A DNA stretch of 64,000 bases from Raillietiella orientalis (Eukaryota), in NCBI GenBank assembly GCA_036172245.1, contig JAYWIR010000018.1, forward strand, positions 2,666,001-2,730,000, given 5' to 3'. Both the position numbers and the translations under genes were made by a program. The notes under the pieces are model-generated. The model worked only from the letters and a program-made list of their open reading frames with translations. It did not search any database and was not told where the DNA came from. Below, piece after piece: positions 12,401-55,395 of this stretch; within the stretch, counting starts at the first letter, position 1, and each line of letters begins with the position of its first letter.

Positions 12401-15179
12401 GCGGGCTCATGTTGCGAAGCAGGCTGGCTTTCGCGAGCAGTCATGCAGCATTTGGAGGCGTTCGGGAAGCCCATTATTCGTTTCTTGCTAGGTCATTAGG
12501 ACAGTGGCTACTACAAAGTCAGTTCCAAGGTCATTGCTAGTCCTCGAAGAATAGCTTCTGCTGCTGTATTGAAGAGCAGGAAGCTGAGAGGGCACCCGTG
12601 CTTTACATTCCAGAGAATTTGGATGCTTTTTGTAGCTCAGGATTCCTCTTGATGGAAAGTACGCACATCCTTGTAAAGATCCTTTTGTTATTTCTTCAAA
12701 GATGATTTCCACTTCACTTTGCTGTAAGGCATCGTGAGACGCTTTTGCCAAACGCATCTGCAAAGAGAAATGAGATACAGATGTTCTGCGAGAACCTCTT
12801 TCGGTCGTCCAGTCTCGCCTGCAGCATGAACTGCTCGATGAGGAATTGAAGGGATGCTCTCTGTTTCAGACAAATGATCTGACTAGCAATGATCTACACT
12901 CGCAAACTTCGCGTGAGGTACTACAGGCTACATAGGCTCCTACATGCAACTGGTCTCCTCCATTCACGCACTCCTGGTCATCCTGAAGGTGATTGGGGAA
13001 GCAGGGTTGTCTTTGGTGGTTCCCCATATTCTGGCGTTTCCCTCGTCCGGAGTGATAGGTTAAAGATGCAATGAGCAGCCGCCCTTGGGTCCAACTGATG
13101 TCTTGCATCTTTTGTACTCTATTCCATCCGATCCTGAGGATGAATCCTCCTCTTTGGTATTGTAATTGCCTCTTCCTTCCTGAAGACACCGGTAAAACTC
13201 ACTGGGGGATGAGATCGCTTCCCACATCTTGGTATTTCTTGCTGGTGTCGGATTCGATTCCGTTCTGATTTTGGAATCCTTCTCAGAGTACTCTTCCAGT
13301 TAGTTCTTTTACAGGAACCTCACACTGTTCTCGAGCTGATCCGGTTACGCTTGCATCAAAGTTCTCCTTTGGTTGATCTGGTACAGTCTTGAGTTTCTTC
13401 GTTAGATCATTTGGTTCCTTCCTGCTATCCCTCAGGTCAGTTTTTACTTCTAGGGTCCCTCCGACTTTGTCTAATAACTGAGAGGCTCTTTCAGACCTGC
13501 CCCAGCAGGGGGATCCTCCTCACTGCGTCGTTCCTGTAATTTTTCCTCCGCACGTGTGAGTTTCTCTGAGCCTTCACTTTCGTTCTTTTCTTCTCTTCTG
13601 CTACAGCACCTGATTTTATTATAGAAGGAATGGAAATTCCTTTCTTTTTGTTGCTTTTCCCAGGGATCCTCTTGTTATGTTAGTGGCCACACTGTGCAGC
13701 CCATGTTCAAGGTGTTTGCCTCCCAAGGAGGACTGTGTTTATCCAATCTGGAAGGATATTTCTTTCTCCTCCTCCTGCTTTCTGACTCCTTGCTCCACTG
13801 ACAGAAAGTCATGCAGTGTCTGTCGCGACCTAGAAGGTGAAAATCGCTTCCACAGTTTCCGACCGAGATGAAAATACCGAGCTACTCTAAATAACTTCAC
13901 TCCCTGTTGATTGGTATGTTTTACGGAGGTTTCATCTCGCTCAGTTTCCCCAGGTTCGACTAGCGGGGGGGGTGAATTTATTTAACAGTACATGATACAG
14001 TACGTAAAGATACAGTACATGAATTTCGCTTTCATTCAGTCACATTTGGTCTTCTCACGCACTTTGTTCACTGTTTTCCCACACATAGCGTTCTTTTGAA
14101 TGTCACCATCGGGGTTGTTTTCCTTTGGACAAAGTCGCTGGGGGATGGAGGACAGTTCACTCTCTTGGCTAATGTCCGCGATCCTCCACAAGATGTAGCG
14201 GTACGTCGAGGTGGCCATCCTGCCGCAGTTACCGGTTCCTCATCTCATCAATCCGGGAGCCGTCCTTTCTACTGGATGCACATGCCGTTGATATTCCATC
14301 TTCACACTCCCGGCAGACGGCAAGAAGGAACTCATCGGTGTTTAATGTGTTGTTTTGCTCTTCTTTCTCTTTTGTTTAGGAGAAGTGATCATCGTTTTTG
14401 AGACGGTCGTCTCTACCCCGCATTGCTCTCCCACTCGATGTAGCCGCTGGTTTCGTCGACGATGTTTTCCTGCTCCTCCTGGGTTAGGCGGGCAACCCTG
14501 TCGTCTTCCTTGCTGGAAGCGAGGCCTGCTGGGCCAACTCGAAGATACTGTCTTTCGCCTCGTTCAGAGCGTTCTCCTCCTGGAGGCTCATCTTTTCGTC
14601 TACTAGTGTGTTGAGGACCTCCTCCCGGAGAGCGGAGATGCTCAGCAGAAGCTCCTGCTGTGCTGCTCCTACGTGTCGTCCCGACGGACCGCTTTCGCGA
14701 ATACGGCCACTTTCTGCGCTTACTCCGTTTCATCTCGCTCAGTGCTAAATCGTCCGAGTGATGAGCATCCACAGAGTCATGCGAAGTGGTTTAGTTCCGG
14801 CGTGGTTTTTCACTTGCATATGCTGGGGCATTTATTATTAAAATTTTAATGAAATAAAATTTTATAATGAAGTCTTTAGGTTCATTCAGGCAGAGCATGT
14901 GAGTCTGCTTGTCTTGGAACACTTGTCTTTACCGGCCCTCAGGCCGGTGAGGTCCTCTTCGCTGGCGAAGGGGGAAGGAAAACCACACAAAAAACAAAAA
15001 CACGAGGGGAGGGCAGTGTTTTCGGGAAGGAGAGGGAAGAGAAGGGATCGCAGTTCTCCGCGAGTGGTCCTCTGCATCCTGGTTTGGATGCGAACAAGTG
15101 ACGGTCGTAGTGTCCGTAACCGACAGCATCGGGAGTGGTAGACTCCCCTGAGCGGCATTCTGTCGGATTTGCTTCCTCC

Positions 15180-17382: not shown

Positions 17383-18246
17383 CAAACGAAAAGCAGGGAG
17401 CGGAGGAGGGGGACCACGAACGTGTTGGTGCGGCACTGGTTGACAGCCAATCACGCCGGGGCGTTTATTCATAAAATGAACTTACATGTTTGATCCTGCC
17501 ACGTTACTTATGAATACGAAAAGGAACCTGCCGGGATCTGACTCGCAGGCCAGCGGGGTTCGCCTCGGCAGCACAGGGGAAGGGGAGTGGTGAAAACCGG
17601 AAACCGGATGCCCCCGTTCACTGGCCTCTGGGATTGGAAGTGGATCCTCCCAGGAACCAGGGAACGATGGTTTTCCTCAGGGGTTCCTCTCCGATCGTGC
17701 GAATGGAGCCTCCCCCCCGCCTTTTTTCCTCCTAAGAGACCCTCCATCTCGCAACATGGAGCTGGAGGATTGATACCCTTCCAGAGTGTGAAGGAGTGCG
17801 CTGCTCCCTTCGGGAGTGCCCTCCAGAGAAATTGGGAAGAGTCCCGTCGGGGTTCTCTGCAGAGGAGGAAACAAGGAGGGCTCCCATGCGGATGCTCTCC
17901 GTTGAAGAAATTCCAGTAGCGCGTCTTTTCCAGGTTTTCTTCGGAGAAGAAATGGGAAGTGGTTCCTCCTCCGGAAGACCCCTCCGGAGAGCAAAAGGAA
18001 AAAGTTTCCCTCGGGGTTCCCTACGGAGGCAACCATGGCGCGGGTTCCCCTCCCCTCCCAAACGTAAGAGGAACGGGTTTTTTGCTCCGGCGCCTTCCTG
18101 GATTCATAGGGTGATCCCTACGGAGTTAGCCCTTATACCTTGAAGAGTGAAACGCCTCTTCGGGTGGCGTGGACAGCGCTAAGGAGCTTCGTGAGCTCCC
18201 CCTAAGGAGGCGGACGGTTCTTGAGCACTTGGCAAACCAAAAAAAA
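17383..18246 (-). repeat. Bipartite LINE derivative (5' end/ORF1 start joined to 3' UTR), inverted duplicate of 54522-55395
   Basis: 17383-18238 matches 54540-55395 in reverse complement (856 bp, few substitutions). Confidence 0.9.
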
Positions 18247-19939
18247 GAAAACATCACAGTTTGTTGATCTCCCGATATTTTTTTTCTTTCACGATTGTCG
18301 GTTTGTTTGTTTCCTTTTTGTATCTTCTGCTGCCCACTCCACTTTGCCCGTTTTCTTGGCTATCGACCTGCGTGCCGGCTCTCGGTGCATTTAAAGTACA
18401 AGTTGTTCCTTATATGTATGTTAACTGAATTCAAATAGCAACGGCCCTGTCGGAGCGGGAGAGAAGCGGTGACGCAGCCGCACACAGGTCGAGCAAGCGG
18501 TAGAAGATGGGGAAAATCCTCATCCTAGCCCTTCCCTTAAATTTCTCCATGGAATCCGCGCAATCTTTTTTCATAGCATTTTCGCCATGTCAAATCGCTG
18601 GAGGCTGAGGAAGTGGCCATTTGTTTTGCTCTTTGCTTCAAGAACGGTCGTGCTAGTTTTCCGAAGACACCTCGAAGCTCACTAAGAAATGCAATTGCCG
18701 AATTCCTATCTCAATGAATTAAACCCGCATGACTAATTTGGGCCAATTAAACGAACTGAACATCGCGATGGAGAATGTGTGGGGTGTGCGAATTTGTGCA
18801 TCGTCAGCGCGCAAATCTAAGAATATGCCCATGGAAGGTGAGCGCTGTTGATGAGGAACACGGCCCAGAGCAGCACCGCGTTTAGAAATTTTGACTCCTG
18901 GCCAAGTCGAGAAGCGAAGAGGATGCGGATGCGTCAGAGCGGCAAGTTCATCTCAAAATGCTCTCAGGAGGATGTATGTTTCTGTCACCAGAAAAAACAA
19001 CAACAACAACAAACTTGATTCGGAATCAAATTTTAGAAGAGAGACGAATATAAAACCGAGATTTCATACATTCCTTGATAGGTCATTAAAAAACCTTGCG
19101 TTTTCTCATGTCTGCATCTCGCTCAGACACGGAATCTTCCTATTCTTTTTTTTTTTTTTTTGCCTTCGAGATGATTGTTCTTGATGAAAACCACGGAATT
19201 GTGAATATTTGCATTTTCCCGACAATCTTTCCAGAAAACTCCAAAGATCATACGATGTTTCAACCAATACTTGAAAATTAATGACGCGAAAGCTGAATAC
19301 GAGCACAGCAGCATGCGTTACATCCTCCTGCATTAGAGCTGCTCCCTGAGATAATCACATCTGTTGCAGGTGCACACTTTCATCTCTTTTTTCGTAAAGG
19401 TTCCTCCTTTGGTGCAAGAAAAGCGAATTCGAAGCGAAGGCGGACTTCACGTGCCTTCGGGGAACGCGTTCCGCTCTATTTAGCTGAGAATTCATGCTCG
19501 TCCTTCCATCGACAGGACCCTTCGCATTCACACGCTTGCCGTCCGTGTGAGGAAAAATCTTAGACGAAGAATTCAAAGAGCCGTGTCGCAAGTTCCCTCG
19601 CCAACGTGGTCTTTTGACACAAGTCAAAAACGACCTTGCGACCCTCACTCGAACTCGATCTCGGAAAAACCCCGGTTCGAATCCAGCGTGAAGGGTGTTG
19701 GAATGCCTCTGCTGGATTCCTGAAGGCAAAAAATCGATCGAGGCAGGACCAGGGACACCACCCTGCAGAAATCCAAGTACATTCGCAAAATGAAATTCCA
19801 CGTTTTATGAAAAACGGGAGCGAAAATCACATCTTCGCCTCGGAGCCGATCGGTGTGAATTCAGTTAAACTGCATTTTGAGTGGAACGCTCCCATCATTA
19901 ACGACTAACAGAAAACGCCGAAGTCAACAGAGTGGAGGC

Positions 19940-24321: not shown

Positions 24322-25158
24322 ACAGTAGGCCCCCGTACAGCGCGGGGCACGCACTCCGCGCGCTATACGAGCCGTATGGGTCACACATGGACAATTCGTG
24401 AAAGACAGAAAATGCATCTAAAGCTCCATAACAGCGGAACATCACTCTCAAACAAAACGAAAAAACGAAAAAGGTTTATTCATCATTCAACATGAAATTA
24501 AAAAAAGAAAACCTTTTCGAGTTGCGTTGATTTTTATTTTTTTTATTCGACTCTAGCACTTCTATAACTTCACCTCTATCGCTCTCGTTGTGCACCTTCC
24601 CGGCCGTTTCCTTCACGAACCTTCGAATGACCTCGACCCACTCCAGTCGCACGTTCGCATTCGTTCCCAAATCAGTTCGGCTGACACGCACTGCGCCCCC
24701 AATTCCAATTCGCCCACAGAGGCGGGCGAGACTGGTTGACCGTCTTGTACGAGGGCTGCGCCCAATACTTGCTGCCGCGATGTACGAATCCGCTTCGTAC
24801 GGAAGTCCGTTGCGTTTCCCACAAGGAATGAAATGCAAACAGAAACGAAAACCGAGGAGTGTCGGCTGCGAGTTTGTCCAAGCGGCGACGCCTCGGGCGA
24901 GGCGTCAGGGGATTCGAGCAGTTGGCACCAACGCGACCGCAACCACTTCCGGTTCGCAAGAGATGGTAGAGTGCCTGGTGGCAAGTGTTTCCAGATTCAC
25001 AGAACACAGTAATGCAACGGATTGTCTCCACCCCTCCAGAGGGGTGGAGACACACCTGCTCCATCAGTACGACTCGGAGAGTCCCCCCCGGAGTCCGCCC
25101 CTCCAACATCTGGAGAGGTGGCGACGCACCTAATCCATGTGAAAAACAAAAAAGGAAA
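24322..25158. repeat. 837-bp module, directly duplicated at 52361-53197; possibly an antisense LINE 3' end
   Basis: Near-identical sequence at offset 28039, with several strong hairpins. Minus-strand GNTCHQALYHLL..LWANWNW only weakly resembles a LINE zinc-finger C-terminus. Confidence 0.93.
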
Positions 25159-28100: not shown

Positions 28101-30289
28101 TACATGGAATTCTTCAGCTATAATTGCTTTAAGTATTTACAGTGTGTAAGAATTGATGCCAAATAATTATTACCATGTGTAAAGTGTTTTAGCTGTTGTA
28201 GCAAGATATTGATGAGAATACATACATCTATTTTGGTTGTGTTCAGATATTGTTATTGGTTGTTGTTATCAGTGCATGGAGTTTTTGTCATAAGGTAGTA
28301 TTGTAAATAATTATGATGTTTTACAGAATCAATACCCTCCAGAATTATACTCTACAATAGCTCAAACAATTGAGCTGATTGCTTTTCTGAGACCAGAGAA
28401 TGCATGTTAAAGCTGATTTTGTTAAGACATTTGATCGTTTGTTTTGTTGTATGTTTTTATCTATAAGAATATGAATTGACCTTTAATTAGCTTATTTGCA
28501 GTAATCAGTTTGCTTCTTAAATGTTCAAGCCTAAAATTTCTTGCTTAAAATCTGGTAGAAAATAATGCTATTTTCAAAGTAATTGTTATTTCTGATCTGT
28601 ATTTGCTGATTCAATTTAGTACTCACATCAGGACAAATGTGTTTCTCAGTACTCTATAATAAAGAACTAAACTCAAGTACTGTGACTACTGATTAGATAC
28701 TTAAATTTGTATGGCAGCTCTTTTAGGCAAAATACAACTGAAAATTAAGTAGCTTCCTTGAATTAAAGTTAGAACTCTACACCATTTTTTAGAAAACATT
28801 TTAGTATGAGGGAAATTAAGAAAGTATGTTTCATTGAGATCCATTTTTGTGTTTTCAGTGAAATATAAATTACTTGCATTTAATTGGTAGTATTGTAATT
28901 TTTCAGTTGTTTTAGTGTAATTGTAATTTTGGTAAGTGTGCACAGATTCATGGATAACAGTTTGGTATAGAGGTCTCTAATTATGATTCTAGGAATTGAA
29001 GCTCACAGCCTTAGTACATAACAATTACCATAGTACATGTTACTGGATTATGATGGGATGCTTAATACAAAATCAGAATCGTTTACCTCAAACAAAGCTG
29101 ATTTATTTTTTGCTTTCAGAGCTGTTAAAACTGTTTAATTTTTTCTTGTATTCATAAGTATTCATTCTAATGGCAATACCAAATCCCAGATTTCTACAAC
29201 TTTCCCTGCACACATGTATTCAAAATTCATTTGTAACTTGGTTTGGTATTTTCCCCTCAAATGTGCCATTTCACAAGTATTGTATCACCTTCTGTGCTTC
29301 TGTCTGCAGTGTTTAGGGCCTGAACAGTTGAGGATGTGTCTAATTTTCAGTGTATTGCAGTGCATCAGTTTTCTTAGCATTGCATGTTTTAAAATTCCCT
29401 TTTTGTTTTAAATCAAGGATTGAGCTTTTGGTTCTTTTGAAACTGCTTAATTTCTACAAATGCTTTTCAATATTTGTGCAAGAAGTTGCTTGAATGGATT
29501 CCATTAACTGTTTGAATGATGAGAAATTTGTTATACCTTTTAGCAATTCGGAATTTTTCTTTTCAGTTTGCATTCATTGATCCAGTGTAACCTCCCACAT
29601 TGTAGAATTTATGGTATCACACCACATTAATTGTTATATAATAATAAAAAAATACATGGCCTCAAAACCATAAGGCGGCAGCACCTTCTGTTACCTACTT
29701 ATGGGCAAAGGTGCAGTAATTTATAACAATTATTCTGAATGATATGGCAAAACTTCTAATGCAAATGAACATCTTGTGCATTTGATCTACATCTTTGTTT
29801 GCAGGCTGCTTACATGTTCAACTACAAAAATCTAGAATTATTTTGGGTGAAGTTAAATTTGCAATTTTTTCTATGATTTTTTCCATTCACAGGCTTCCTT
29901 TTTACTGCATAGTGTGAAGCTTTTTCTGTTCAGCTTACACAGTCTTTAATGAACTTAAATATAACTTCTTTTAAACTACAATATTACTTTTTTTAGTAAC
30001 TATGCAATCCAGCTCATTTAGTGCAGCTCAGACATCTACATTTTTTTCCTTAACCTTTGTAAGCATCTCTCATTTTTAAAATTAAGAAAAATAAATATGT
30101 ATTGTTCATGTTATCACATGAAACAATCTTTTCATTTGCTGCTGATTCAGTCAAATCATAAAGCAAAAAAATCTCCCCATTTTTCATTTCTGGTCACTTA
30201 TGCACAATCCCAATAAAAAGCTAGTATCACTAGTAAGCCTCAAGCACAGCAAGGCCTAAGAAACTTTAAACTTAGTCTGTTCTTCTGTA

Positions 30290-30335
30290 GCCACCAGATA
30301 GGTGGCGTATCAGATATTAAGCTGATATGAACAGA
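30290..30335 (-). ncRNA. U2: U2 snRNA gene fragment (about nt 39-84; stem IIa and stem-loop IIb), non-functional
   Basis: Minus strand reads TCTGTTCATATCAGCTTAATATCTGATACG, 28/30 to the vertebrate U2 sequence as I recall it. It is followed by GCCACC-TATCT-GGTGGC, a 6-bp stem with a TATCN loop as in stem-loop IIb. The U2 5' part and Sm site are absent. Confidence 0.85.
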
Positions 30336-30416
30336 TTTTATTTGGAAATTTCTTTACATTACATGCAAGCATATAAAATGGATGGCTACTGTATCTTCCT
30401 TTCTTTCATTAACAGC
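30336..30416 (-). mobile_element. Inverted copy of the Utopia-like 3' UTR
   Basis: The reverse complement aligns to 34046-34128 at about 80% identity by hand, and both copies end in aaataaaa|tctgttc. Confidence 0.85.
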
Positions 30417-30417
30417 G

Positions 30418-33400
30418 ACCCGTATGTCGTGTGGCATGGTGGGTTGTAACTCATCAACATGGTTACTGTTCACCATCAGATGCAGTCTGTGAAGAGCCAT
30501 GGTAAGACTGCACATGAGATAGAAGAGATGCAGTTAAGATACAAATGCAGGGACTGCGAGGCAATCTTTCTGTCGAGGAGACCCTCAGACCACACCTGCG
30601 AAGATCAGTCCACTTCAACTGCGGAAACTGCTGCTCACTCGGTCGTTCGACCGAGTGAGCAGCAGCAGTTCAATGGTCAATCTAACCAGGTTCATTTGCA
30701 ATAAGCTGGACTGTGGCATGGCCTTCTCTACAAGAAGAGGCCTATTGAACCACCAGATCTGACATGATCGAGCAGAACGATGATTAGTCACAACGTCCAC
30801 AAGTATAGAAAAAGAAACAAGTGATGAGGCGGAAGAGGACTCGATTCATGATATATCTGTAACAGGACTTGAATGCAATAAGAAAGATTGAAAAATTCCT
30901 TCATTGCCCGCCCGTAAGAAAATTATGATAACATTTGCCTGCAACAAGCCTGATTGTAAGATAGTACCTTTGCAACACAAAGACCCTTCGAAACCATCAA
31001 ACCTAGGACGTTCGCGCTGATCGACGGACCAGATCAGTCTCTTCTCAAGGATGCACTGAACTTTATAGCACGCAGAGCACTTCAAGTGAAAATGAAGATG
31101 AGTTCAAAAATTTGGATGCAGTGATCGAAGATTTCTTAGAAGAGAACCAAGGGAAGGAAGAAGAAATATCCGAAACACTTACAGAATCAATGGCAGATCA
31201 GCAGTTGGAAGAAGTGCTTCCCATAGACTCACGAAGTTCGCTACCTGCACAGATGGTCCCTACTATTGAACAGAAAGATGACTTTGCAGAAGCAGGGAAG
31301 CTACTAAGGTCCATCATTGATAACGAGTTCTTCGAGGATGAGGATATCTATGAAGCAGAAGTACCTCAGGAAGATCAAGCTGCCATACAGAAGCAAGAAG
31401 AGCATCCTAAAGAAACAGTAGTGCTCACTGAAGAAGGAAAGCAAGATCAACAAGTTAAAAAGAAATCAAGGAAAAAAGGAATAAGGCAACCGGACTTCTC
31501 GGAACAGTTTGCCGAAGAAAGGAAGTTCCCCCTAGACTTTTCCGAGCATTCAAGGGTCAAGATAAGTATCGTCTCTCGATCGATGCCAGCGTAGCTGAGA
31601 AACATTTTGAATAAGAATTGGAGATTTTCGTCCCTACAGATGCGGAAGTTCCTAGGAAGATTCTTCTTGGGAGAGACAATCATGTGTCTCCCCTGGAAAT
31701 GTCTCCCCACTCTGAAGAAAAGGTCTCTGGATGGCTACGAAGGGCAGAAAACTCGGCATCCAGGCTAGATGGAATCACTTCGAATGGAGAATTCTGGACT
31801 TTGAAGCAAAGATACTAACATCGGTTTTTTATATCCTTTTGAGGGAGAAGTTGAGTCTATCAGCTTGGACGTGCACGTGAACGATTCTGCTTCCGAAATG
31901 TCTGCAGCTTCCCCCAACATGGCGGACTGGAGACCAATATCAATTGCTAACTGCCTACAGGTTCTACTCCAAGTGTCTGTCAGCGCGTCTCAGGGATTGG
32001 ATCCGTGATAATAACGTCATCTTTCCGCAACAAAAGGGCTTTTTACCATTCAATGACGTATTGGATCACAATGTCGTGCCGCAGACAAAGCTGGAGTACA
32101 CAAGACGAACTTGGAAAGATATTGGAATCGTCTTTGTGGACTTGGCCAACGCCTTTGACACCATCTGCCATGAAATGCTTTCGAGAACATTAGCAGAAGT
32201 AGGAATGGTAGATTTTTTCATGGAAGTGATAAAGGAATTATGTTCGAACGCTGTGTACATTCAGCTGAAATACTACGCTCAGTAGACCGTGGTTCCTCCA
32301 GTGTGGAGTGAAGCAAGGGTGTCCATTGAGTTCCTTCCTTTCCATCTTCTCCCGGGAGACTATTTTAAGAGTAATGTGGCAGAGCGTCGGTGAAGATACT
32401 CTCCTGACATACGCCTGATACGAATTGGTCGCCTTGGCTGAAAACGAAGACCTGAAGTGGAGGCTACGCCACTTTGAAGATCTTGCGTCTCGCACTGGCT
32501 TGACCATGAACCCGTCCAAGGATTATTCTCCTCCGGGAAGACGCCTCGAGGTCTCAGAAACACCAACCTGTGGGTTGGGAAAGAAGACATTTCGAACATC
32601 GCAGTGTCTGAGGCGTACGGATACTTGGGAAAACCGTGCGGAATTGAAGTCTTTAAAACTGCTTCATCTAAAGAAGAGATGGTACAGAAAGTCCAAGTCC
32701 TTTTGATGTCTGGGCTGTCTCCGTTGTAGAAGTTCGATATCATTAAAACCTTTTTTCATAGTTTTGTGCATTTTCAGAGACTGGAAACGCATCCCAAAAA
32801 TGATTGGAAATACCTCGATATGTAGATCAGAAGGATGGTGAAGACCATTCTGCACCTTCCTACAAGAGCCAATACTTCTACGGGGAGAGAAGAAAGCGAT
32901 GCCTGGAGATGATGCGGATGTCCGATGAATTTGATACCATTATCGACAGTTGTTTCAAACTCCTAACGTCTTCTGATGTGGCCGCAAGGATCTAGCTAAG
33001 CAGTCACTCCGAGAGGTGTTACTTAAACAGTTACCACAGCCACCTTCGGGTGAGGAGCTTGGAATATTTCTATCCGGTGACACTTCCGGATTAGTGGAAA
33101 CATTAAGAGCATTTAGACCACGGGAATACAAGCCTCCTACCGCATTTGGCAACTTGGAACTTCGAAGATGATGAAACCAGGATACAAGTAGGAGACCTAA
33201 CGTTCAATGCAGCAATGGGGGGGAAGTGCACTGCGACAATGCGGAACGCACAACGGGAACGCTCATGGCTAGAACTGATCATTCAGATCAACATTCAGAT
33301 CAAGGGAGAGCCATGCGACTTTATTGTTTTTCCAGTTATATTTAACGACGACTGGAAAATATCTTCGTTTTGACGATTTTCGTTTCATCCATGCAGCAAG

Positions 33401-34128
33401 ACTGAACCTGCTGTCGATCCGAAGCGGAGCAAGAAGATCCCAAGGATAAAGATCGTGCAGCCGCCGCGTACCTTGAGATGAGACCCTGCTTCAGATTCTG
33501 AATCACTGAATGATGCACTTTCCCCTATACTCAACGAGGCACGATGCTATCGTAATAAGGCTGTCGGCAGTGGCAAAGAATACCACAGGATGGAAGCTAG
33601 TGTCGTCGGACAAGCTGGTACCTGAGTGTGACCTTAGCTTATGGCCTAATCTGGCGCTGCAGAAGGCAAAGAAGATGATCATCCTTGAAGTTTCCCGTCC
33701 GTTCTACAACACGAAGAGGTATTCATCCTCAGAAGAACGGAAAAAGATGAGTACCGGGAGATCCCCTGACTGGTAAGAAAAGCTTCAGGCTGGGTGAAAG
33801 CTATTATCGTCGGTGCATTAGGAACCCGGGACCCACGGAATGATGGAGTAATCGGTGAGTTAGGTATCTCGAAGCGGTATTAGGAAGCCATGTGGCACCT
33901 GATGGTGACCTCTTGCATACAGCACAGAAGGGACATCGGCAGCCTGGTCACATCGGTTAGGGCATCCTCCGGACGACGCAAATCGACAAACATATGAAAC
34001 AGCTGCAAAAGAAAGTACCTTATTAAATCCATAAAGAGTGAAGAAGCCGTTATCAAAAGATAGGAAGATACAGCAGAGTCATCCAGTTTATATACTTGTA
34101 TGTAATGTGAAGAGACTGTCAAATAAAA
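30418..34128 (+). mobile_element. Degenerate RLE-type non-LTR retrotransposon, NeSL clade, Utopia-like (zinc fingers, RT, CCHC, RLE)
   Basis: Motifs read across frameshifts: zinc fingers YKCRDCEAIF..DHTC (~30540) and FICNKLDCGMAFSTRRGLLNHQI*H (~30692). RT: WRPISI, YRFYSKCLSARL..W, QKGFLP..DHN, FVDLANAFDTICH, GVKQGCPLS (31925-32340). RHDAIVIRL, WPNLAL..IILEV, IIVGALG..DP.ND (33535-33850). The 3' end aaataaaa is followed by TCTGTTCTT, the U2 sequence found 3' of Utopia insertions. Confidence 0.88.
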
Positions 34129-36910
34129 TCTGTTCTTGTGGAAGTAAAGAAAGCAAGGCTCAACTGATTTCTTAAGTGTTGGCACTTAAGAAATGGTTTA
34201 TGTCATTTCTTATCACTTTTAAACTAGCTTGTTCTCTCGTGCTACAGATTTTAAACGTCTTCCAACCGAGAAGGAATAATCTTGAATCAATTCGTTCTAT
34301 GGAATCCACGCTCGAAACTTTAGCATGGTGAATTCCCAATCCCGCGATTGACCAGCTCATTCATTGAAGTAAACTTGAAGTATGCACTTCCCTCCTCACA
34401 ATCTGAATTTCCGGGCTTCTAAATTTTGTGCCCAAATTCGTTTTTGTCACAGTGAAATACTCTTCCGGCTGACATCAAGCTCCGTGGAATCACAACACCC
34501 GAATTAAGGTGTAGCTAAAATTCTGAACTCGGTTTTGGAAATTACAAGGATACCGTGGTGTGTTCACGAGATTTCATCCAAAGGCATTTCAGCTGCCATT
34601 TATTGCTGTGCAAGTCGCTGCATGCAGCATACATCCGTTGTGCTCATTTTTCTCTGAAAGTGCTCACAATACACTCTCTCTAGTTTACTGTCCTGGTCTG
34701 AGCACTGTGTAGTTTCTTTCTTATTCGTATCTTGAACAGAGTAGGACCGTCGGCTACTGAGAAAAGTTCGGGAGTTTGAGTGAATTTGCAGACCTTGAAA
34801 GAGTTGGAAAGAACTGTAATAAATGTGTACCGCACTGCCAGCTGTTACAGATAGACTGATTGCATTAACATCTTAGAAGAGTGTGAAAGAGGTCCATGAA
34901 AGCAATCTGCTTTTCCGGAACGCAGGATTTGAAAATGGTTAGCGCTCATCTCATCAAGGCTAAGGAAAATCTGCTTAAACAAATTAGCAAGTCACGTTAC
35001 ATTTGACACACTTAGTGTAAGTACTAGAACTGATGAAAAAGCTCAAGATGCAGACGCAAGTCGAGTCACTCCGTTCTTGAGATTCATCTTCTGCCTGAGA
35101 ACAAAGAAAAAACAATTTGAATCTCACGCCATTCAGTGTAAAGCTGGGAGGATGCTTATCAACTTTGCTAACTTGGAAGAGAAGGCTTGACAATAGAAAA
35201 AGCAAAATGAAAACTATTCTACAAACTGCTGAGACAGCCAAGGAATAATCCATATCATGAATTGAAACCTATGTTGCATCTATAGAACATCTCGTAAGGC
35301 GAGCTCATTATTTCAGTGAAAACTAAAGATGCTATGTAATTCAACAACACCCAAATTTGATGGAGAAGGCTAAAATATCAACCTTCTTTGATCGGGAGAT
35401 AACTTTTGCTGCTTGCAATTTCGGAACATGACTACCTGACTATCGAGCAAATAGAGGCATGCTAGTAACGTAAGACTAAAACAAAAACCAGTGAAATACT
35501 TTAGAAAAAAAGGATCTACTACATGAACGGACCTAATGAATGAATGAGGGATCTGAGTCACGCAGCTTCCTTTTCTCCTTTTTACTAAGAAGCGGTCAGA
35601 TATTACCTTACCTACTAATTTGACTTGTGACATTAAAAAGTGTTCATATAATATGAAAAAAACCTTTTATATATTAAGAAATTGGCATTAATTGTGTATA
35701 GACCTGTGGTTCGTAACATATATTTGTAACATACAATTCATGACGGATGTGGGACCTATCGTGACAGAGAGGCTTTCCTCCAGTGCTCTGCTGCGACCGC
35801 ACCCATAGACAAAACGAGGCTTTACTATGCATAAGCTTTTCTCATATAGGAAATACAAATTCATCAGCACATTTTTGAAAAATCATCATAGGACGTGCAA
35901 TGCCATTGATAGAGTTATGTTGCGAGAGTGTGGAAATAATTGACACACATACTCGTAATTAACAACAAAGTGCACAGTTTAAAGAAATAAAATATCCTTT
36001 GAAGCTGAGGCGAAATCTTAAGAAAACCCTGAAAGAGCTGGAGCGAAGGACATAAGCCATGACATTCTGGCAAAGACATGGGAAAGACCCACCAATGACT
36101 AAAATTAAAGTAGTTTGTTTTGTGTCAACATGATATAGGATCACTGACCGGAATTCATATGATAATAATCTAAGACATCGGGTAGAACATTAGTCTCTGG
36201 TTCCAAAAACGCTCTAAGAATACTTCTGCCAGCTTCATGCAATTCTGAAACCACCACCAGCTAACACAACACTGAAAACACTCTGTGATTATTCCGTAAA
36301 CTACAAGACCGAGGTAAGATTTACGATGCAGGATAGCAAAACTCTTCAACGAATGTAAAAGAAAAACATGGGTATACGATACAGTGTAAACATGAGTTTC
36401 AATGTATATGCCTATACATGATCACATATATACTCAGGGGAATACTTATTTACATTATCGTATACCCAAGGGACACAGGTTTGATGATACATGACCCAAT
36501 ATATGCCAGTAATCGTACATGAAAGCATAGGAAGCAATCACAGGATGTGTGCGTGTTTACAGTTGACACTTTTTTCTGTAGGCACATCAATCAGGGACAA
36601 ATCCGATAAAAAAAGTCGATTACAAAGTTCCTCAGTCAAGAACGTGATAGAAACAGTTGCCCGCCAACGATATTTATCGATAAATAATTGAGGAAGAATT
36701 TGAGGATATTCTTGGGAGACTTCTGCCTTGCAACAGATCTTCAGATGCAAAATTTTTAAGTAAAATAAGGAAGTACTGGACATCACATTTTCAGCGGTTG
36801 CTTACTTTTTATCTTCTGCTGCAAACTTAGGAAATCTTGCATTCGCTTTCCATTCTGAACATATGTGCTGTTCACACATGGTCTCCAGCAACTACTCTCA
36901 CATGTTCTGC

Positions 36911-39900
36911 TTTCCCCAGTCCGCTGGAGTGATTTTATTTAATCCACATGCATACAAAAACGACGATTGGACGAACAAGGAAAACACTTTCTCATTTGCT
37001 TTTACGCTGTCGTCCGGTGCACTGAGTATCACTTTTTCCAGTCAAATCCAAGCTTATGTCTCTGGGGTCCGGTCACTAGGGAATGTTGGGCGTTGCACTC
37101 CCCTGGACAGGATGAGCGATACACGTAGGCTGGGATTGGTCCGCAGTTCCTGATGTCGATTTCCCTCTGGGTTAATCCTCTCATGATTGCCATCGCAGGC
37201 GCTATTCTTGTACTCCTTATCTTCGCCCTTCTTATCGCAATGCTCGTGATGAAGAGGACAATCACTGTTCGTACCATGGGATCGTATCTGGGAACGTTAC
37301 CATGCCCTTCGAACAATCCCTTCTGGATTTCCATCTTTGATTTCATCTGCAGACCTATCACTGCCTTCAGCATTACTCACTCTTGGCCTAGCGTTCAGCA
37401 GGTGAACACCTGGAGCTGTGTTTTCTTGGCTCCACACTCCTTGTGGAACTCTTCCTGAGTGTTGCCTGTCCAGTATTTGGTTCTCGGGGCACCCAGAATT
37501 CCTCCGTGGCAAAACAAGAGGGGGTGGTCATGAGTGTGCGATAGCAGGTCACTCCAGCAGCTTGTGGGCTCATGTTGTGAGATTCGTAACGGCTGGCAGC
37601 TGCGGCGAGGAGTCCTGGTTTTCTTCTTTGGTGAAAACAAGTTCATGTTTTCTCATCATTTTGGACCATGCACTGCTCTGCTTTTTACGCATCTCGCGTG
37701 TCCTGTGCGTAAAACGTCCTGTGACTTGCTTGCAGTACCGGAGCAGTCGCATCTCGTGGTAGCTGCCATCGGTAGCGAGCTGTTCTCAAACCCGGATGGT
37801 CAGTCTGGGTCTTACGTGTATCCAAAGCTACATCTCCCTTGGAACGGGAAGGAAGCAAGAATTACCGAGGTCGGTTCTTCCATCTGGATTGTTCTGCTGC
37901 GAGGCATCATTTTCCTTTGGTGAGTCCTCACCAGTGCCTGCTTACTTTTCCAGGTGATCTCCATTCACTCCAGGTTTGCCAATAGAGGATGACATCAGGC
38001 CACTAAAGTTAACACCTTCGAAAAGGCTCTTTGTGCCACAAACTCTCATCCGTCTCGGTCTTCAGCAAGTTCCAGTTGTCGCGCATTCATGGCGATGCAT
38101 GTAGCGTTCCGACGACTTCATCCCGGTTCTGCCATCTCCTTGAAGGCGGTCTTGAGCCTTATCCGCTATTTGAACTCTCCCCACAGATCTCTTCGTTGTA
38201 GATGTCCCACCTCCATCTGAATCTTCTTGTCCATTCGGCAGATGGCCCTTTCACAGAGCACCTTGGTAAGGAGCACGTCATTTTACAAATTGGTACCCTG
38301 CTTTATACTTTTGAAGTCATCCAGGGTGAAATTGGCTGCTTTTCCTCTTTTTTCCTTAGGATTTCTCTCCACAGAGGCCTGCGACGCCGCCGATGGGGAT
38401 TCCAAGGTTCTGATTCCATCTACCTCTCAGAATCCCTTTTCTCTTAGTCTGGAGAGGTTAAGAATTCCGGTGGACATGAGATGGGACTTTTGGACGTTGA
38501 TCTGGAGACCCAGTTCTTTCTTCAGACTCGACTACACGCAGGAACGTATGCTCCTCATCCTTCAGGAAGAACAGAAAATTATCCGCATTTGCTAAGTGAA
38601 TCAGTTTGGCGTCCTCAATCTGGATTCTTTGAAGGCAGCTGCCTCTCATCGATCACCGACGGAACAATCTCCATGTAGATTACAAACAGCATTGGACTCG
38701 GGGCCTCGCCTTGGGCTGATTCCCCTTTCCATGCTGATTGCTTTTGCAATCTGCCCGTTGATGCAGATTTTGAAGTACTGCTATTCGAGTACTCTTTCCA
38801 CTCACTGGATGGAGCACTTTGGGAAGCTCAGTTTCCTCAATATACTCAGCAATATTATTATCACGTGCTTCACGGTGCCCAAGGTATTCTCCACATCCGT
38901 GAAGCCCAGCGTTAGTTCATCGCCGATGTGCCGACTATGCTCAGTGGTGGTGGCCTGGGTACACCCCACGTTGCCAGGGAGGCGGTGTCCAGATACCGCA
39001 AACGTCCGCTTTGGAAAGATGGTCTATGCTAAAACCTCACTCAAGCGGTCGGCCGAGATCGTGGCCAGGTACCGGGCGTCCGAGTTCAGGATGGACATTG
39101 GTCGACGCGGGGTGACCTTTGTTAGGTCGCCTCCCTTGGGTGGCGATTTCATCCTGCTTCCGTGGAATGACTCTGGGAGCCTCTTCTTCTTAGATGCAAA
39201 GCGTGAGCTCGTGGGACAGGCGCAGGATGTCCACCTTCCACTTGAGAGTGGAAGGTGGACACATTATGAGGCCTGCTGCCACATTCTTGCGTAGTTCCGC
39301 GTACGCGCCTTTCACTTCTTCCATGAAAATCTCTTCGTCTAGCCTCTGGACGCTGAGTCCTCGCCGGAGGTAGCTCAAAATGTTTCTTGTTGCATGGAGA
39401 ACACGTCTTGGCTTTAAAAGTGAGGAGTGGTTGTGTAGTTCGAGCTCTCCTACGATGCTTTCCGACGTTCGATGCACTTGATCCTTGTGCTGGATGCAGA
39501 AGATGCCGGTGGAGATGTTTTCATCCAGCACGACGATTTCCCCCCTTACCAAGTGGAAAACATACCGTCTCGCGTAATGACCCCGATTCTTCGAGAGATA
39601 GGACCTTGGACCTTCGAGCGACCTTGGATGTTTAGCTCTCGGTACGCTTCCTGGATCATCATACAGTCTCCGTATCGAAGGTTGCAAAACGAGGGGATCC
39701 TATGCTTCAACTTGCCCCAGTTGACGACTCTGCAGAAGGTGAGACTTCGCAGAATCGCCTCGCTAACTTCCTGGTGGCAGGTAGGCATCTCGAGCCAGGT
39801 GGGCATGCAGGCGAGGGCAGCCTTGGATTCCATCTTCCTCCGAGGGTTTTCCGTTTTCAAGGTGAATCACAGTAGCGGGTGATCCGAGAGCTGAGTCTCG

Positions 39901-42085: not shown

Positions 42086-42123
42086 TCAACACTCACAAGA
42101 CGTTATAGGAGATGCGGTGGGCC

Positions 42124-43075
42124 TCGTCTACTCCCCTTGCTTCAGTTCTGCCCTCCCTAAGGGACGCAAGGGACAGCGCGATCCCGAAAAGGTGGGAATT
42201 GACTTGCTGCATGACGGCAAAGAGGAAAGTATTGGGGGCGTGGACAACTCGGAAAGTGACGGACTCTGAGGCTCCGAGTGTCCCACCCAAAGGGCTTCTA
42301 CGCTGAAGAGAGCTGCTTCCAATCCCTCCGGAGGGCGTGAAGCGGCTCCCAGAGTGCTGGAACAGAGTAGCTCCCTCCTCCTCAAATGGCCAGAGTTGGC
42401 GTTGCCGATGATGCATGGGGGAGTCCCGTGCAAAGCGCGCCTTCGCCACTGGACATGGGGCGGGGAGCGCGGACGCTCAGTGCGACAGGCGCGGAAAGAA
42501 GGAGACCCTCCCGCGCCTGCTCTTGGGCTGTGCTGTCCTCCGACCCCTTTGGGATCGTCTCGCGACGATCGTAGGAACCCCGGCGGGTGGCCCCACGGGC
42601 ATTTGGAAACGCCTCTTTGTGGGTGATGCCTCACTGCCACCAGCCGCTACCCTTGCAATTCTCTGTTGTGTTCGCAGGATCACGGCGGTTTGGAACGGCA
42701 GAGGAAGAGGCCGAAATGGCAGAGGCGCCATCCACTGGGCGTGGATCTTCCTGACGACCGCCTCGGGATGGTGCCACCTGCGCGAGACACGAACGGAACT
42801 CGTCAGCATCCTGAACAGGATGCAGGGGACGCCTGGGAACGTACTGTGATCCCTTCCTCGATTCCTCTCTCCCCGTGTAAAGTTTCCCCTCCTCTGTTTC
42901 ATTTGTTTGTTTGTTTTTTGTTTTTGTTCTCTCTTCCCCCACGCTGCCGAAGCGGACCTCGCCGGTCTACGCACCGGTCTTCGGCAGGTTCAAAGCACGT
43001 GGTACAACGAGTGTTCTACCACAAAAATGTATTTTTATTACTTCACGTAATAAATGCCTCGGCATAACCTGGGTG
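42124..43075 (+). mobile_element. L1/Tx1-like LINE 3' fragment (ORF2 C-terminus and 3' UTR)
   Basis: MHGGVPCKARLRHW..CDRRGKKETLPRLLLGCAVLRPLW (zf-RVT-like), then a T-rich UTR and the terminus aataaatgcctcggcataacctgggtg. Confidence 0.8.
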
Positions 43076-43079
43076 ACAC

Positions 43080-48625: not shown

Positions 48626-48691
48626 CGGGGAAAGAAGGAGAAGGTTTTTCACCCGATTTTGCCGTGGCATTGATTATCAAAAATAATAATG

Positions 48692-49606
48692 ATAAAAATA
48701 CATTTTTGTGGTAGAACACTCGTTGTACCACGTGCTTTGAACCTGCCGAAGACCGGTGCGTAGACCGGCGAGGTCCGCTTCGGCAGCGTGGGGGAAGAGA
48801 GAACAAAAACAAAAAACAAACAAACAAATGAAACAGAGGAGGGGAAACTTTACACGGGGAGAGAGGAATCGAGGAAGGGATCACAGTACGTTCCCAGGCG
48901 TCCCCTGCATCCTGTTCAGGATGCTGACGAGTTCCGTTCGTGTCTCGCGCAGGTGGCACCATCCCGAGGCGGTCGTCAGGAAGATCCACGCCCAGTGGAT
49001 GGCGCCTCTGCCATTTCGGCCTCTTCCTCTGCCGTTCCAAACCGCCGTGATCCTGCGAACACAACAGAGAATTGCAAGGGTAGCGGCTGGTGGCAGTGAG
49101 GCATCACCCACAAAGAGGCGTTTCCAAATGCCCGTGGGGCCACCCGCCGGGGTTCCTACGATCGTCGCGAGACGATCCCAAAGGGGTCGGAGGACAGCAC
49201 AGCCCAAGAGCAGGCGCGGGAGGGTCTCCTTCTTTCCGCGCCTGTCGCACTGAGCGTCCGCGCTCCCCGCCTCATGTCCAGTGGCGAAGGCGCGCTTTGC
49301 ACGGGACTCCCCCATGCATCATCGGCAACGCCAACTCTGGCCATTTGAGGAGGAGGGAGCTACTCTGTTCCAGCACTCTGGGAGCCGCTTCACGCCCTCC
49401 GGAGGGATTGGAAGCAGCTCTCTTCAGCGTAGAAGCCCTTTGGGTGGGACACTCGGAGCCTCAGAGTCCGTCACTTTCCGAGTTGTCCACGCCCCCAATA
49501 CTTTCCTCTTTGCCGTCATGCAGCAAGTCAATTCCCACCTTTTCGGGATCGCGCTGTCCCTTGCGTCCCTTAGGGAGGGCAGAACTGAAGCAAGGGGAGT
49601 AGACGA
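48692..49606 (-). repeat. Near-identical inverted duplicate of 42124-43038
   Basis: 915 bp; the ORF-track peptides are identical apart from a single substitution (GHGAG vs GHEAG). This copy lacks the LINE terminal motif. Confidence 0.95.
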
Positions 49607-50259
49607 AGGCCACAGCATCTTTCACGGATTGGACACGAAGGAAGGAGAAGCTGAGAAGGGAAGAGATGAAAAATTCTTCCCCGGCCTTCCGTTCAGCAGC
49701 ACCCTTACGGGCCGAACCGTCGCGCGTTCCGGCAAGCCGGGCGAGGCAGCGCGCTTGCGGGAAGGGGCACTCTTGCGGTAGGCGTGCGTCCAGAACCGTG
49801 TATCTGAACAATGGGTAGACGATCAGGGAACGAGGGGGTGGGTGGGATCTTTTGCCTTCTTGGATCCCGGGTTGCCCTCTCCCGATGAATAAAAAATGAA
49901 GGCGAAGGATTAGGGTGGGAAGGACGGCTGGAAGAGAACTCTACTCTCTTCGTGAAGATTGCAGATTACATCTAGTAATATTTAGAGTATATTTTTAGTT
50001 TGCTTCGGAAAAGCAAGTAAATAAAAACTAAATTTAGTGAGGACTACGGTAAATGCCAAGAAAACATCCTTCATCAACGAAGAGGACTGTGACTTATTTT
50101 TAGTAAGCATTCAAACGAAGAGTTCATTAACACACGAACTTATTTTGGCCCACGGGGAAGATGATGTTTCGAAAAGGTGCGAGGCGTCGAAAATTTCACG
50201 GGGAAAAGAAAGGAAGGAAGGAGCCACGTGCAAGCGCTTCCCGCACGCGCGTGATTTGC

Positions 50260-52360: not shown

Positions 52361-53197
52361 ACAGAAGGTCCTCGTACAGCGCGGGGCACGCACTCCGCGC
52401 GCTATACGAGCCGTATGGGTCACACATGGACAATTCGTGAAAGACAGAAAATGCATCTAAAGCTCCATAACAGCGGAACATCACTCTCAAACAAAAGGAA
52501 AAAACGAAAAAGGTTTATTCATCATTCAACATGAAATTAAAAAAAGAAAACCTTTTCGAGTTGCGTTGATTTTTATTTTTTTTATTCGACTCTAGCACTT
52601 CTATAACTTCACCTCTATCGCTCTCGTTGTGCACCTTCCCGGCCGTTTCCTTCACGAACCTTCGAATGACCTCGACCCACTCCAGTCGCACGTTCGCATT
52701 CGTTCCCAAATCAGTTCGGCTGACACGCACTGCGCCCCCAATTCCAATTCGCCTACAGAGGCGGGCGAGACTGGTTGACCGTCTTGTACGAGGGCTGCGC
52801 CCAATACTTGCTGCAAAGATGTACGAATCCGCTTCTTACGGAAGTCCGTTGCGTTTCCCACAAGGAATGAAATGCAAACAGAAACGAAAACCGAGGAGTG
52901 TCGGCTGCGAGTTTGTCCAAGCGGCGACGCCTCGGGCGAGGCGTCAGGGGATTCGAGCAGTTGGCACCAACGCGACCGCAACCACTTCCGGTTCGCAAGA
53001 GATGGTAGAGTGCCTGGTGGCAAGTGTTTCCAGACTCACAGAACACAGTAATGCAACGGATTGTCTCCACCCCTCTAGAGGGGTGGAGACACACCTGCTC
53101 CATCAGTACGACTCGGAGAGTCCCCCCCGGAGTCCGCCCCTCCAACATCTGGAGAGGTGGCGACGCACCTACTCCATGTGAAAAACAAAAAAGGAAA
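52361..53197. repeat. Second copy of the 837-bp module
   Basis: Matches 24322-25158 with scattered substitutions. Confidence 0.93.
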
Positions 53198-54521: not shown

Positions 54522-55395
54522 TTTTTTTTTTTTTTTTTTGGTTTGCCAAGTGCTCAAGAACCGTCCGCCTCCTTAGGGGGAGCTCACGAAGCTCCTTAGC
54601 GCTGTCCACGCCACCCGAAGGGGCGTTTCATTCTTCAAGGTATAAGGGCTAACTCCGTAGGGATCACCCTATGAATCCAGGAAGGCGCCGGAGCAAAAAA
54701 CCCGTTCCTCTTACGTTTGGGAGGGGAGGGAAACCCGCGCCATGGTTGCCTCCGTAGGGAACCCCGAGAAAAATTTTTTCCTTTTGCTCTCCGGAGGGGT
54801 CTTCCGGAGGAGGAACCACTTCCCATTTCTTCTCCGAAGAAAACCTGGAAAAGACGCGCTACTGGAATTTCTTCAACGGAGAGCATCCGCATGGGAGCCC
54901 TCCTTGTTTCCTCCTCTGCAGAGAACCCCGACGGGACTCTTCCCAATTTCTCTGGAGGGCTCTCCCGAAGGGAGCAGCGCACTCCTTCACACTCTGGAAG
55001 GTTATCAATCCTCCAGCTCCATGTTGCGAGATGGAGGGTCTCTTAGGAGGAAAAAAGGCGGGGGGGAGGCTCCATTCGCACGATCGGAGAGGAACCCCTG
55101 AGGAAAACCATCGTTCCCTGGTTCCTGGGAGGATCCACTTCCAATCCCAGAGGCCAGTGAACGGGGGCATCCGGTTTCCGGTTTTCACCACTCCCCTTCC
55201 CCTGTGCTGCCGAGGCGAACCCCGCTGGCCTGCGAGTCAGATCCCGGCAGGTTCCTTTTCGTATTCATAAGTAACGTGGCAGGATCAAACATGTAAGTTC
55301 ATTTTATGAATAAACGCCCCGGCGTGATTGGCTGTCAACCAGTGCCGCACCAACACGTTCGTGGTCCCCCTCCTCCGCTCCCTGCTTTTCGTTTG
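54522..55395 (+). mobile_element. Bipartite LINE derivative (poly-T 5' end, ORF1 start, 3' UTR) plus about 60 bp of shared flank
   Basis: 54540-54700 is homologous to the 5' end of the full-length LINE (41890-42035, reverse complement) and to ~50690-50830. 55200-55335 is homologous to the family 3' UTR and ends in aataaacgccccggcg. Confidence 0.8.

What the first reader, a model, noticed from the sequence alone, without database searches (positions are those of the whole stretch)
30276..34137. Utopia-like LINE at a non-U2 site, bracketed by TCTGTTCTT and capped by an inverted copy of its own 3' UTR plus U2 read-through
Seen: TCTGTTCTT at 30276-30284; an antisense U2 fragment (30290-30335); an antisense copy of the element's 3' UTR (30336-30416); the sense element to 34128; then TCTGTTCTT at 34129-34137 not followed by further U2. 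Known: Utopia elements insert into U2 genes just upstream of TCTGTTCTT. Inference: an off-target insertion at a 9-bp U2 mimic with a 9-bp target duplication. Its 5' junction would come from twin priming or a template jump onto a read-through RNA (3' UTR plus U2), giving the LINE pseudo-terminal inverted repeats. Alternative: two independent head-to-head insertions.
Basis: partly seen in the sequence, partly recalled or inferred. Interest (0 to 1): 0.75.

Follow-up and report, generated by a model that had tools for sequence, protein, structure and literature searches.

The report
Utopia retrotransposon with inverted own-tail cap
A long-dead jumping gene that normally lands in U2 spliceosomal RNA genes sits at a 9-letter look-alike site and carries a back-to-front copy of its own tail plus a piece of U2 on its front end, most likely because both ends of the cut DNA started copying the element's RNA; it is a one-off fossil of a process known from human LINE-1.

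Summary
The structure is real. TCTGTTCTT lies at 30276-30284 and 34129-34137. Between them are antisense U2 (45 of 46 nt), 81 nt of antisense 3' UTR, and a decayed, 5'-truncated RLE retrotransposon. The two UTR arms (66 of 81 nt identical) are each other's closest match among 71 junctions in this genome, and their divergence fits the decay of the ORF (about 8-10%), so they probably had one source. The orientation rules out a template jump onto RNA. The U2 content rules out simple snap-back at this site, which would have copied the right flank. Best reading (0.55): one off-target insertion at a U2 mimic in which both cut DNA ends primed reverse transcription, the second at the 3' end of a U2 read-through RNA (the same or a sister molecule), leaving a 9-bp duplication. 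The empty site could not be found, so the duplication is inferred. The cap was seen at 1 of 71 junctions, so it is an accident and not a family trait. Earlier scan notes describe U2-headed Utopia copies in this genome but not this architecture. New variant of a known kind; interest 0.4.

The parts
30276..30284 (+). Left TCTGTTCTT; inferred left copy of a 9-bp target-site duplication, starting exactly at the Utopia first-strand nick position
   Evidence: Exact match; chance about 1.4e-4 within 10 nt; duplication inferred, no empty site seen
30285..30289 (-). 5-nt linker (TACAG on the minus strand): either three more U2 bases (CAG) behind a 2-nt insertion or untemplated bases
   Evidence: locus L019 has a similar TA insertion at the same U2 position
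30290..30335 (-). U2 snRNA fragment, 46 nt from the Utopia junction (nt 39 in Kojima and Jurka's numbering) to the base of the second hairpin
   Evidence: Rfam RF00004 model 34-84; 45 of 46 identical to the L012 tail
30336..30416 (-). Last 81 nt of a Utopia 3' UTR ending AATAAAA (antisense arm of the cap)
   Evidence: 66 of 81 identical to the sense arm and sister to it (96/90); mutual best match of 70
30415..34128 (+). Decayed, 5'-truncated Utopia-type non-LTR retrotransposon (lacks the roughly 900-nt leader and the first ~25 codons seen in relatives)
30424..30760 (+). N-terminal zinc-finger region, frameshifted
   Evidence: 25 other matches in the own genome; zf-C2H2 E 0.0021, below its cut-off
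30648..30672 (.). Private 25-nt fold-back insertion, an inverted copy of the bases just upstream (18 of 18 perfect arms)
   Evidence: I6; absent from 12 of 12 aligned relatives
31576..32977 (+). Reverse transcriptase region, broken by 5 stops and 6 frameshifts in 464 aligned codons
   Evidence: Pfam RVT_1 E 4.8e-8 on 31881-32282
33339..33937 (+). Decayed CCHC finger and restriction-like endonuclease
   Evidence: 46% and 42% identity to the C-terminus of U2-flanked relative L137, E 9e-38
34046..34128 (+). End of the 3' UTR (sense arm of the inverted repeat)
34129..34137 (+). Right TCTGTTCTT; canonical Utopia 3' junction, with no further U2

Best explanation
One insertion event at an off-target U2 mimic, primed from both ends. 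Shown: the order, orientation and identity of the pieces. Inferred: (1) the source copy sat in a U2 gene, so its RNA read through into U2; (2) the endonuclease nicked the bottom strand just upstream of TCTGTTCTT and that end primed a long cDNA at the UTR/U2 boundary, copying 3.7 kb; (3) the top strand was opened 9 nt downstream, and this second 3' end primed a short cDNA at the 3' end of the read-through tail of the same RNA or a sister RNA, copying 46-49 nt of U2 and 81 nt of UTR; (4) the two cDNAs were joined head to head with about 2 nt of overlap; (5) fill-in duplicated the 9 nt. The copy then decayed by about 8-10%.
For: Direct repeat brackets the whole composite and starts at the family's nick position. 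Arms are mutual best matches among 70 alternatives, sisters in a tree of the 16 closest UTRs with 4 shared derived sites, and equally diverged (6 versus 9, or 10 versus 7 private changes). At 8% decay per copy, 15 or more differences in 81 nt has P 0.26 and at most 1 in the 46-nt U2 piece has P 0.11; 5 stops in 464 codons corresponds to about 8-10%. The cap holds U2 bases that are absent from the right flank, so its template was not this locus's own cDNA plus target. Opposite-orientation pieces inside one duplication are the signature of two reverse transcriptions from opposite ends in LINE-1 (PMC13174262; PMC11702581), where secondary priming preserves the duplication; here 0 of 6 other 5'-truncated, U2-headed copies keep TCTGTTC at their 5' junction (L012, L046, L070, L074, L080, L170). 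A duplication that starts at the nick has precedent: 20 bp in reptile Utopia and one 18-bp case in S4 Fig of PMC4640811. Read-through target sequence aids R2 priming (PMC6795142 passages).
Against: No empty site was seen, so the duplication is inferred. Kojima and Jurka report no duplication for arthropod Utopia. There is no complementarity between the left 9-mer and the U2 bases beyond the cap, so priming would have to be at a free RNA end. The U2 piece looks younger (1 of 46) than the ORF and arms (P 0.05 at 10% decay), which would suit a later second event. Mutually closest UTRs in an inverted pair also occur at L032 (1 of 6 tail-to-tail pairs), so sister arms do not prove a single event. 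The arm identity is only fifth of 2485 pairs. Inner-junction similarity is weak (reached by 2-13% of null positions). Only one such locus was seen (1 of 71).
Confidence: 0.55

Rival explanations
1. Template switch on DNA. The 3' end of the long cDNA annealed to another U2-embedded copy (the donor locus or another cDNA), copied its UTR end and 46-49 nt of U2, and was then joined to the left target end. One event, but the cap was made by snap-back-like DNA copying and not by a second priming on RNA.
For: Snap-back junctions that put antisense transgene or nearby rDNA at the 5' end are a documented R2 outcome (PMC11371274 passages). A private 25-nt fold-back lies 230 nt inside the same element. 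The 2-nt overlap and patchy similarity at the inner junction fit equally well.
Against: Snap-back on this locus's own cDNA would copy the right flank after the 9-mer, not U2; a second DNA must be recruited. It does not explain why the 9 nt of the left end were kept.
Confidence: 0.17
2. Two events at one spot. The sense element inserted first; later a sister-family RNA with a U2 tail was copied in the opposite orientation at its 5' junction.
For: The U2 piece is better preserved than the body. Short, 5'-truncated copies with U2 tails of many lengths are common here (71 junctions with tails of 8 to 152+ nt; some of the shortest may be chance matches). L032 shows neighbouring inverted sister UTRs.
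Against: The cap lies exactly between the left 9-mer and the body and has no duplication of its own; its closest relative among 70 is the very element it caps; both arms carry similar numbers of private changes.
Confidence: 0.15
3. The composite formed on target inside a U2 gene by snap-back (which would copy UTR plus U2 exactly as seen) and then either was transcribed and re-inserted here, or lost both U2 flanks by deletion.
For: It yields the cap content with a documented mechanism. The left flank has a faint likeness to U2 upstream of the site.
Against: No second locus with the cap-to-body junction was found. The left-flank likeness is weak (reached by 1.4%, 13% and 9% of background positions for three window sizes). 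Two precise deletions would be needed, or an RNA whose 3' UTR is tied up in a 130-nt duplex.
Confidence: 0.1
4. Assembly or library artefact, or a DNA transposon with true terminal inverted repeats.
For: Inverted copies of nearby sequence are a known sequencing artefact (own knowledge); no reads could be laid on the locus.
Against: The arms differ at 15 of 81 positions plus a 2-nt gap, and the cap holds U2 bases absent from the right end. The left arm begins 44 nt inside the left 9-mer, and the coding sequence is RT plus RLE.
Confidence: 0.02

Closest known systems
Utopia, U2-targeting RLE non-LTR retrotransposons of the NeSL clade, especially weakly specific crocodilian Utopia-1_AMi copies (Kojima and Jurka 2015, PMC4640811; read: main text parts 1-3 of 5, S4 Fig whole, S1 Fig part 1 of 8)
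   Same: Zinc fingers, RT, CCHC and RLE in one ORF; 3' end AATAAAA joined to TCTGTTCTT; off-target sites with short U2 mimics; a duplication that starts at the nick in reptiles.
   Different: No inverted UTR-plus-U2 cap appears in the parts read; arthropod families are said to make no duplication; here it is 9 bp rather than 18-20 bp.
LINE-1 twin priming and two-RNA opposite-orientation chimeras (PMC13174262, PMC11702581, PMC2912911; passages only)
   Same: Two oppositely oriented reverse-transcribed pieces inside one target duplication, joined with little overlap.
   Different: APE endonuclease and poly(A) priming there; the classical form copies non-overlapping parts of one RNA, whereas here the 3' end is copied twice and includes read-through target sequence.
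R2 snap-back 5' junctions in PRINT (PMC11371274; passages only)
   Same: RLE enzyme; antisense element or target sequence at the 5' junction.
   Different: Snap-back copies the locus's own cDNA or flank; here the cap holds U2 bases that the right flank lacks.
Penelope-like elements with inverted pLTRs (PMC3846280; passages only)
   Same: A head-to-head inverted terminal piece with an optional tail, the whole flanked by an 8-10 bp duplication.
   Different: In Penelope this is a recurring family structure with a different enzyme; here it is 1 of 71 junctions and the enzyme is RT-RLE.

Membership tests
Utopia | 3' end joined to U2 sequence at TCTGTTCTT (nt 39) | tested here: met
   Both UTR ends in the window, and related copies L002, L005, L006, L007, L038 with longer U2 tails
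Utopia | Restriction-like (PD..D/E-type) endonuclease after a CCHC finger, not APE (separates it from Keno) | tested here: met
   Decayed motif aligns at 46% to U2-flanked relative L137; related RT region is closest to R2 structures in the PDB (L070, E 8e-45 versus 1e-20 for L1)
Utopia | N-terminal zinc fingers then RT in one ORF | tested here: met
   ORF is broken
Utopia | RT groups with named Utopia families in the NeSL clade | not tested
   No named Utopia proteins were fetched
Utopia | No R2-type Myb domain (criterion in PMC13188248) | tested here: inconclusive
   No Pfam family on the 195-aa stop-free piece between fingers and RT, but the region is decayed
Classical twin priming (one RNA, internal second priming) | Inverted and direct pieces come from adjacent, nearly non-overlapping parts of the RNA | tested here: not met
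   The inverted piece repeats the last 81 nt of the direct piece
Double-ended priming, broad sense (two cDNAs from opposite ends) | Opposite orientation of the two pieces | tested here: met
Double-ended priming, broad sense (two cDNAs from opposite ends) | One target duplication around both pieces, confirmed by an empty site | tested here: inconclusive
   Exact 9-bp direct repeat; flanks single-copy, no empty site
R2-type snap-back at this locus | Antisense piece copies the locus's own cDNA and downstream flank | tested here: not met
   Cap continues into U2, right flank does not
Elements with built-in inverted termini (Penelope-like, TIR transposons) | The inverted end recurs across copies | tested here: not met
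   1 of 71 junctions; not seen in 40 stretches of 9-10 kb

The most novel reading that the evidence does not exclude
A single Utopia RNA was copied from both cut ends, and its U2 read-through tail did two jobs: its first 9 nt paired with the primer strand at an off-target mimic and displaced the top strand over exactly those 9 nt, fixing where the second cut fell, and its unpaired remainder served as the template for the second priming. The duplication length would then be set by RNA-DNA pairing, making the read-through tail a target guide that also leaves its own record at the 5' junction.
Probability: 0.2. Interest if true: 0.6.

Novelty: new variant of a known kind. Interest (0 to 1): 0.4.

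Why it matters
How RLE retrotransposons cut and use the second strand is still poorly understood (PMC6895275 passages), and R2-type proteins are being developed for gene insertion. If the best reading holds, this fossil shows that Utopia RNA carried at least 46 nt of U2 read-through in vivo, and that the second DNA end can prime on that tail. It predicts a specific by-product (antisense 3' module inside a short duplication) at off-target sites. As one decayed locus without an empty site, it suggests an experiment rather than settling the question.

Tried and rejected
Empty site: both flanks matched only themselves in the own genome; no relative genomes are held; for sequencing runs none was listed, which is no evidence either way. 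Family-wide cap: among 71 junctions, 24 had same-orientation protein hits within 1.2-1.5 kb upstream, 4 had opposite hits (one junction had both) and 44 had none; of the 4, only the window's hits were to Utopia finger and RT queries, and the other 3 came from query pieces that look by eye like the C-terminus of another LINE; those 3 loci were not examined further. Left flank as decayed U2 5' end: inconclusive. Reading 30267-30284 as a decayed continuation of U2: blastn extends that far for some U2 tails (L014, L015, L054), but it requires the central 8 nt to turn into a perfect target motif; considered and not favoured. Inner-junction microhomology: inconclusive, 1 of 17 relatives dropped for lack of the anchor. 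20-bp duplication for full-length relatives: their 3' ends were not intact in the stretches fetched, so it is unproven. Folding the cap as RNA gave no unusual stability (z -1.33). No tRNA genes in the window; 0 of 13 other long window ORFs had a Pfam family. Literature searches for this architecture in Utopia or R2 returned no description of it; the library lacks most subscription papers, and 7 of 8 parts of S1 Fig and the other supplements of PMC4640811 were not read.
Full report
Observation. TCTGTTCTT is exact at 30276-30284 and 34129-34137, two of only three exact copies in the window. An antisense U2 fragment follows the left copy (Rfam U2, 30290-30340, E 1.8e-4), 45 of 46 nt identical to a well-preserved U2 tail elsewhere in the genome. 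Then come 81 nt of antisense 3' UTR, 66 of 81 identical to the element's own 3' end, and the sense element to 34128. U2 similarity stops after the right 9-mer. An exact 9-mer within 10 nt of the cap's end has a chance of about 1.4e-4. The 5 nt between the 9-mer and the U2 piece may be three further U2 bases behind a 2-nt insertion; L019 has a similar insertion.

The element. It encodes zinc fingers, an RT (Pfam RVT_1, E 4.8e-8) and a CCHC finger plus restriction-like endonuclease that align at 46% with a U2-flanked relative. A U2-flanked relative's RT is closest to R2 structures. It is dead: 5 stops and 6 frameshifts in 464 RT codons, which simulation puts at about 8-10% decay with a wide margin. 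It is truncated at the first finger; relatives have about 25 more codons and a leader of about 900 nt. It meets the Utopia junction and domain tests; the phylogenetic test was not done. Earlier scan notes call the host an arthropod; I did not test that.

The family in this genome (210 Mb, 491 contigs). I catalogued 71 candidate 3' junctions with U2 tails from 8 nt to the full 152 nt scored; some of the shortest may be chance matches, and the searches give lower bounds. Short tails and off-target sites are therefore ordinary here. The cap is not: only the window has a Utopia body head to head with a U2-tailed UTR (1 of 71, 1.2-1.5 kb examined upstream, 44 with no protein hit at all), and no such cap appeared in 40 stretches of 9-10 kb.

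One source or two? The two arms are mutual best matches among 70 alternatives and sisters among the 16 closest (96/90), with 4 shared derived sites against the four nearest outgroups and a roughly even split of private changes. At 8% decay per copy the 15 differences are expected (P 0.26) and the near-perfect U2 piece is tolerable (P 0.11; P 0.05 at 10%). So the arms can have been identical at insertion, though sequence cannot separate one RNA from two sister RNAs. Against over-reading: the pair ranks fifth of 2485, and the tail-to-tail pair at L032 also has mutually closest UTRs.

Mechanism. Orientation and content exclude two simple routes. A jump of the first cDNA onto another RNA gives the same orientation (PMC13174262, passages). 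Snap-back of the cDNA on itself, documented for R2 (PMC11371274, passages), would copy the 9-mer and then the right flank, but the cap continues into U2. The template therefore had U2 beyond 9 nt: a read-through RNA, or another U2-embedded DNA copy. Opposite-orientation pieces inside one duplication are what two reverse transcriptions from opposite ends give in LINE-1, including from two RNAs, and secondary priming there preserves the duplication (PMC11702581, passages). Consistent with that, this truncated copy kept 9 nt of downstream target on its left, while 0 of 6 other truncated U2-headed copies did. It differs from classical twin priming (PMC2912911, passages) in copying the RNA's 3' end twice.

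Is a 9-bp duplication plausible for Utopia? Kojima and Jurka report none for arthropods and 20 bp for reptiles, and rare recognisable ones off target; their S4 Fig shows one 18-bp duplication starting at the nick. In this genome three near-full-length relatives (L182, L185, L201) start right after U2 position +20, which could reflect a downstream top-strand cut or a U2-derived RNA leader; their 3' ends were not intact. The inner junction has about 2 nt of overlap and weak further similarity, compatible with end-joining under any one-event model. The left flank's likeness to upstream U2 is inconclusive. The empty site was not obtainable.

Verdict. Double-ended priming at an off-target mimic 0.55; switch onto donor DNA 0.17; two events 0.15; on-target composite later moved or trimmed 0.10; artefact 0.02. 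My searches found no description of this junction type for Utopia or R2, within a library that lacks most subscription papers; the scan's own notes hold none with these words. It is a real, single, decayed example of a process known from LINE-1, carried out by an RLE element on a read-through tail: a new variant of a known kind, interest 0.4.

Noticed in passing
window 30648-30672: A 25-nt fold-back insertion inside the element forms a perfect 18-bp hairpin and is absent from 12 of 12 relatives. It may date from the same insertion event or be younger.
   Followed up: partly
L182 (rc 514-533), L185 564-610, L201 (rc 589-640); also L092, L093, L006: Near-full-length Utopia relatives begin right after U2 position +20 (…CAGCTTAAT), and several tails stop at 19-20 nt. 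This resembles the 20-bp duplication of reptile Utopia rather than the 'no duplication' reported for arthropods, or marks a U2-derived RNA leader.
   Followed up: partly
G000 genome-wide (L150-L179 sampled): 562 matches to a 16-nt U2 5' motif (control 3). In the 30 sampled the U2 match stops at about nt 31-38, only 1 heads a same-orientation Utopia piece, and none of 44 heads seen continues as an intact U2 gene.
   Followed up: partly
L015, L016, L022, L032, L029, L054: Six loci hold two U2 tails facing each other 280-360 bp apart; four share a homologous spacer. This suggests an old inverted U2 pair that was duplicated or carried by read-through.
   Followed up: partly
L057 (about 1380-1510) and L077 2525-2560: U2 5' pieces in inverted orientation next to Utopia-like ends: at the 5' side of a short copy in L057 and at the 3' side of an element in L077.
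   Followed up: no
L071 2095-2260 and L206 2950-3140: Opposite-strand Utopia-like pieces abut tail to tail, with only 7 nt of U2 in L071.
   Followed up: no
window 42110-43076 / 48649-49620, 17383-18251 / 54527-55395, 24322-25158 / 52361-53197: Three pairs of young (98-99% identical) inverted repeat copies of 0.8-1 kb, probably recent transposable elements.
   Followed up: no
window 12535-13184 and 38856-39191, minus strand: Fragments of other reverse-transcriptase elements.
   Followed up: no
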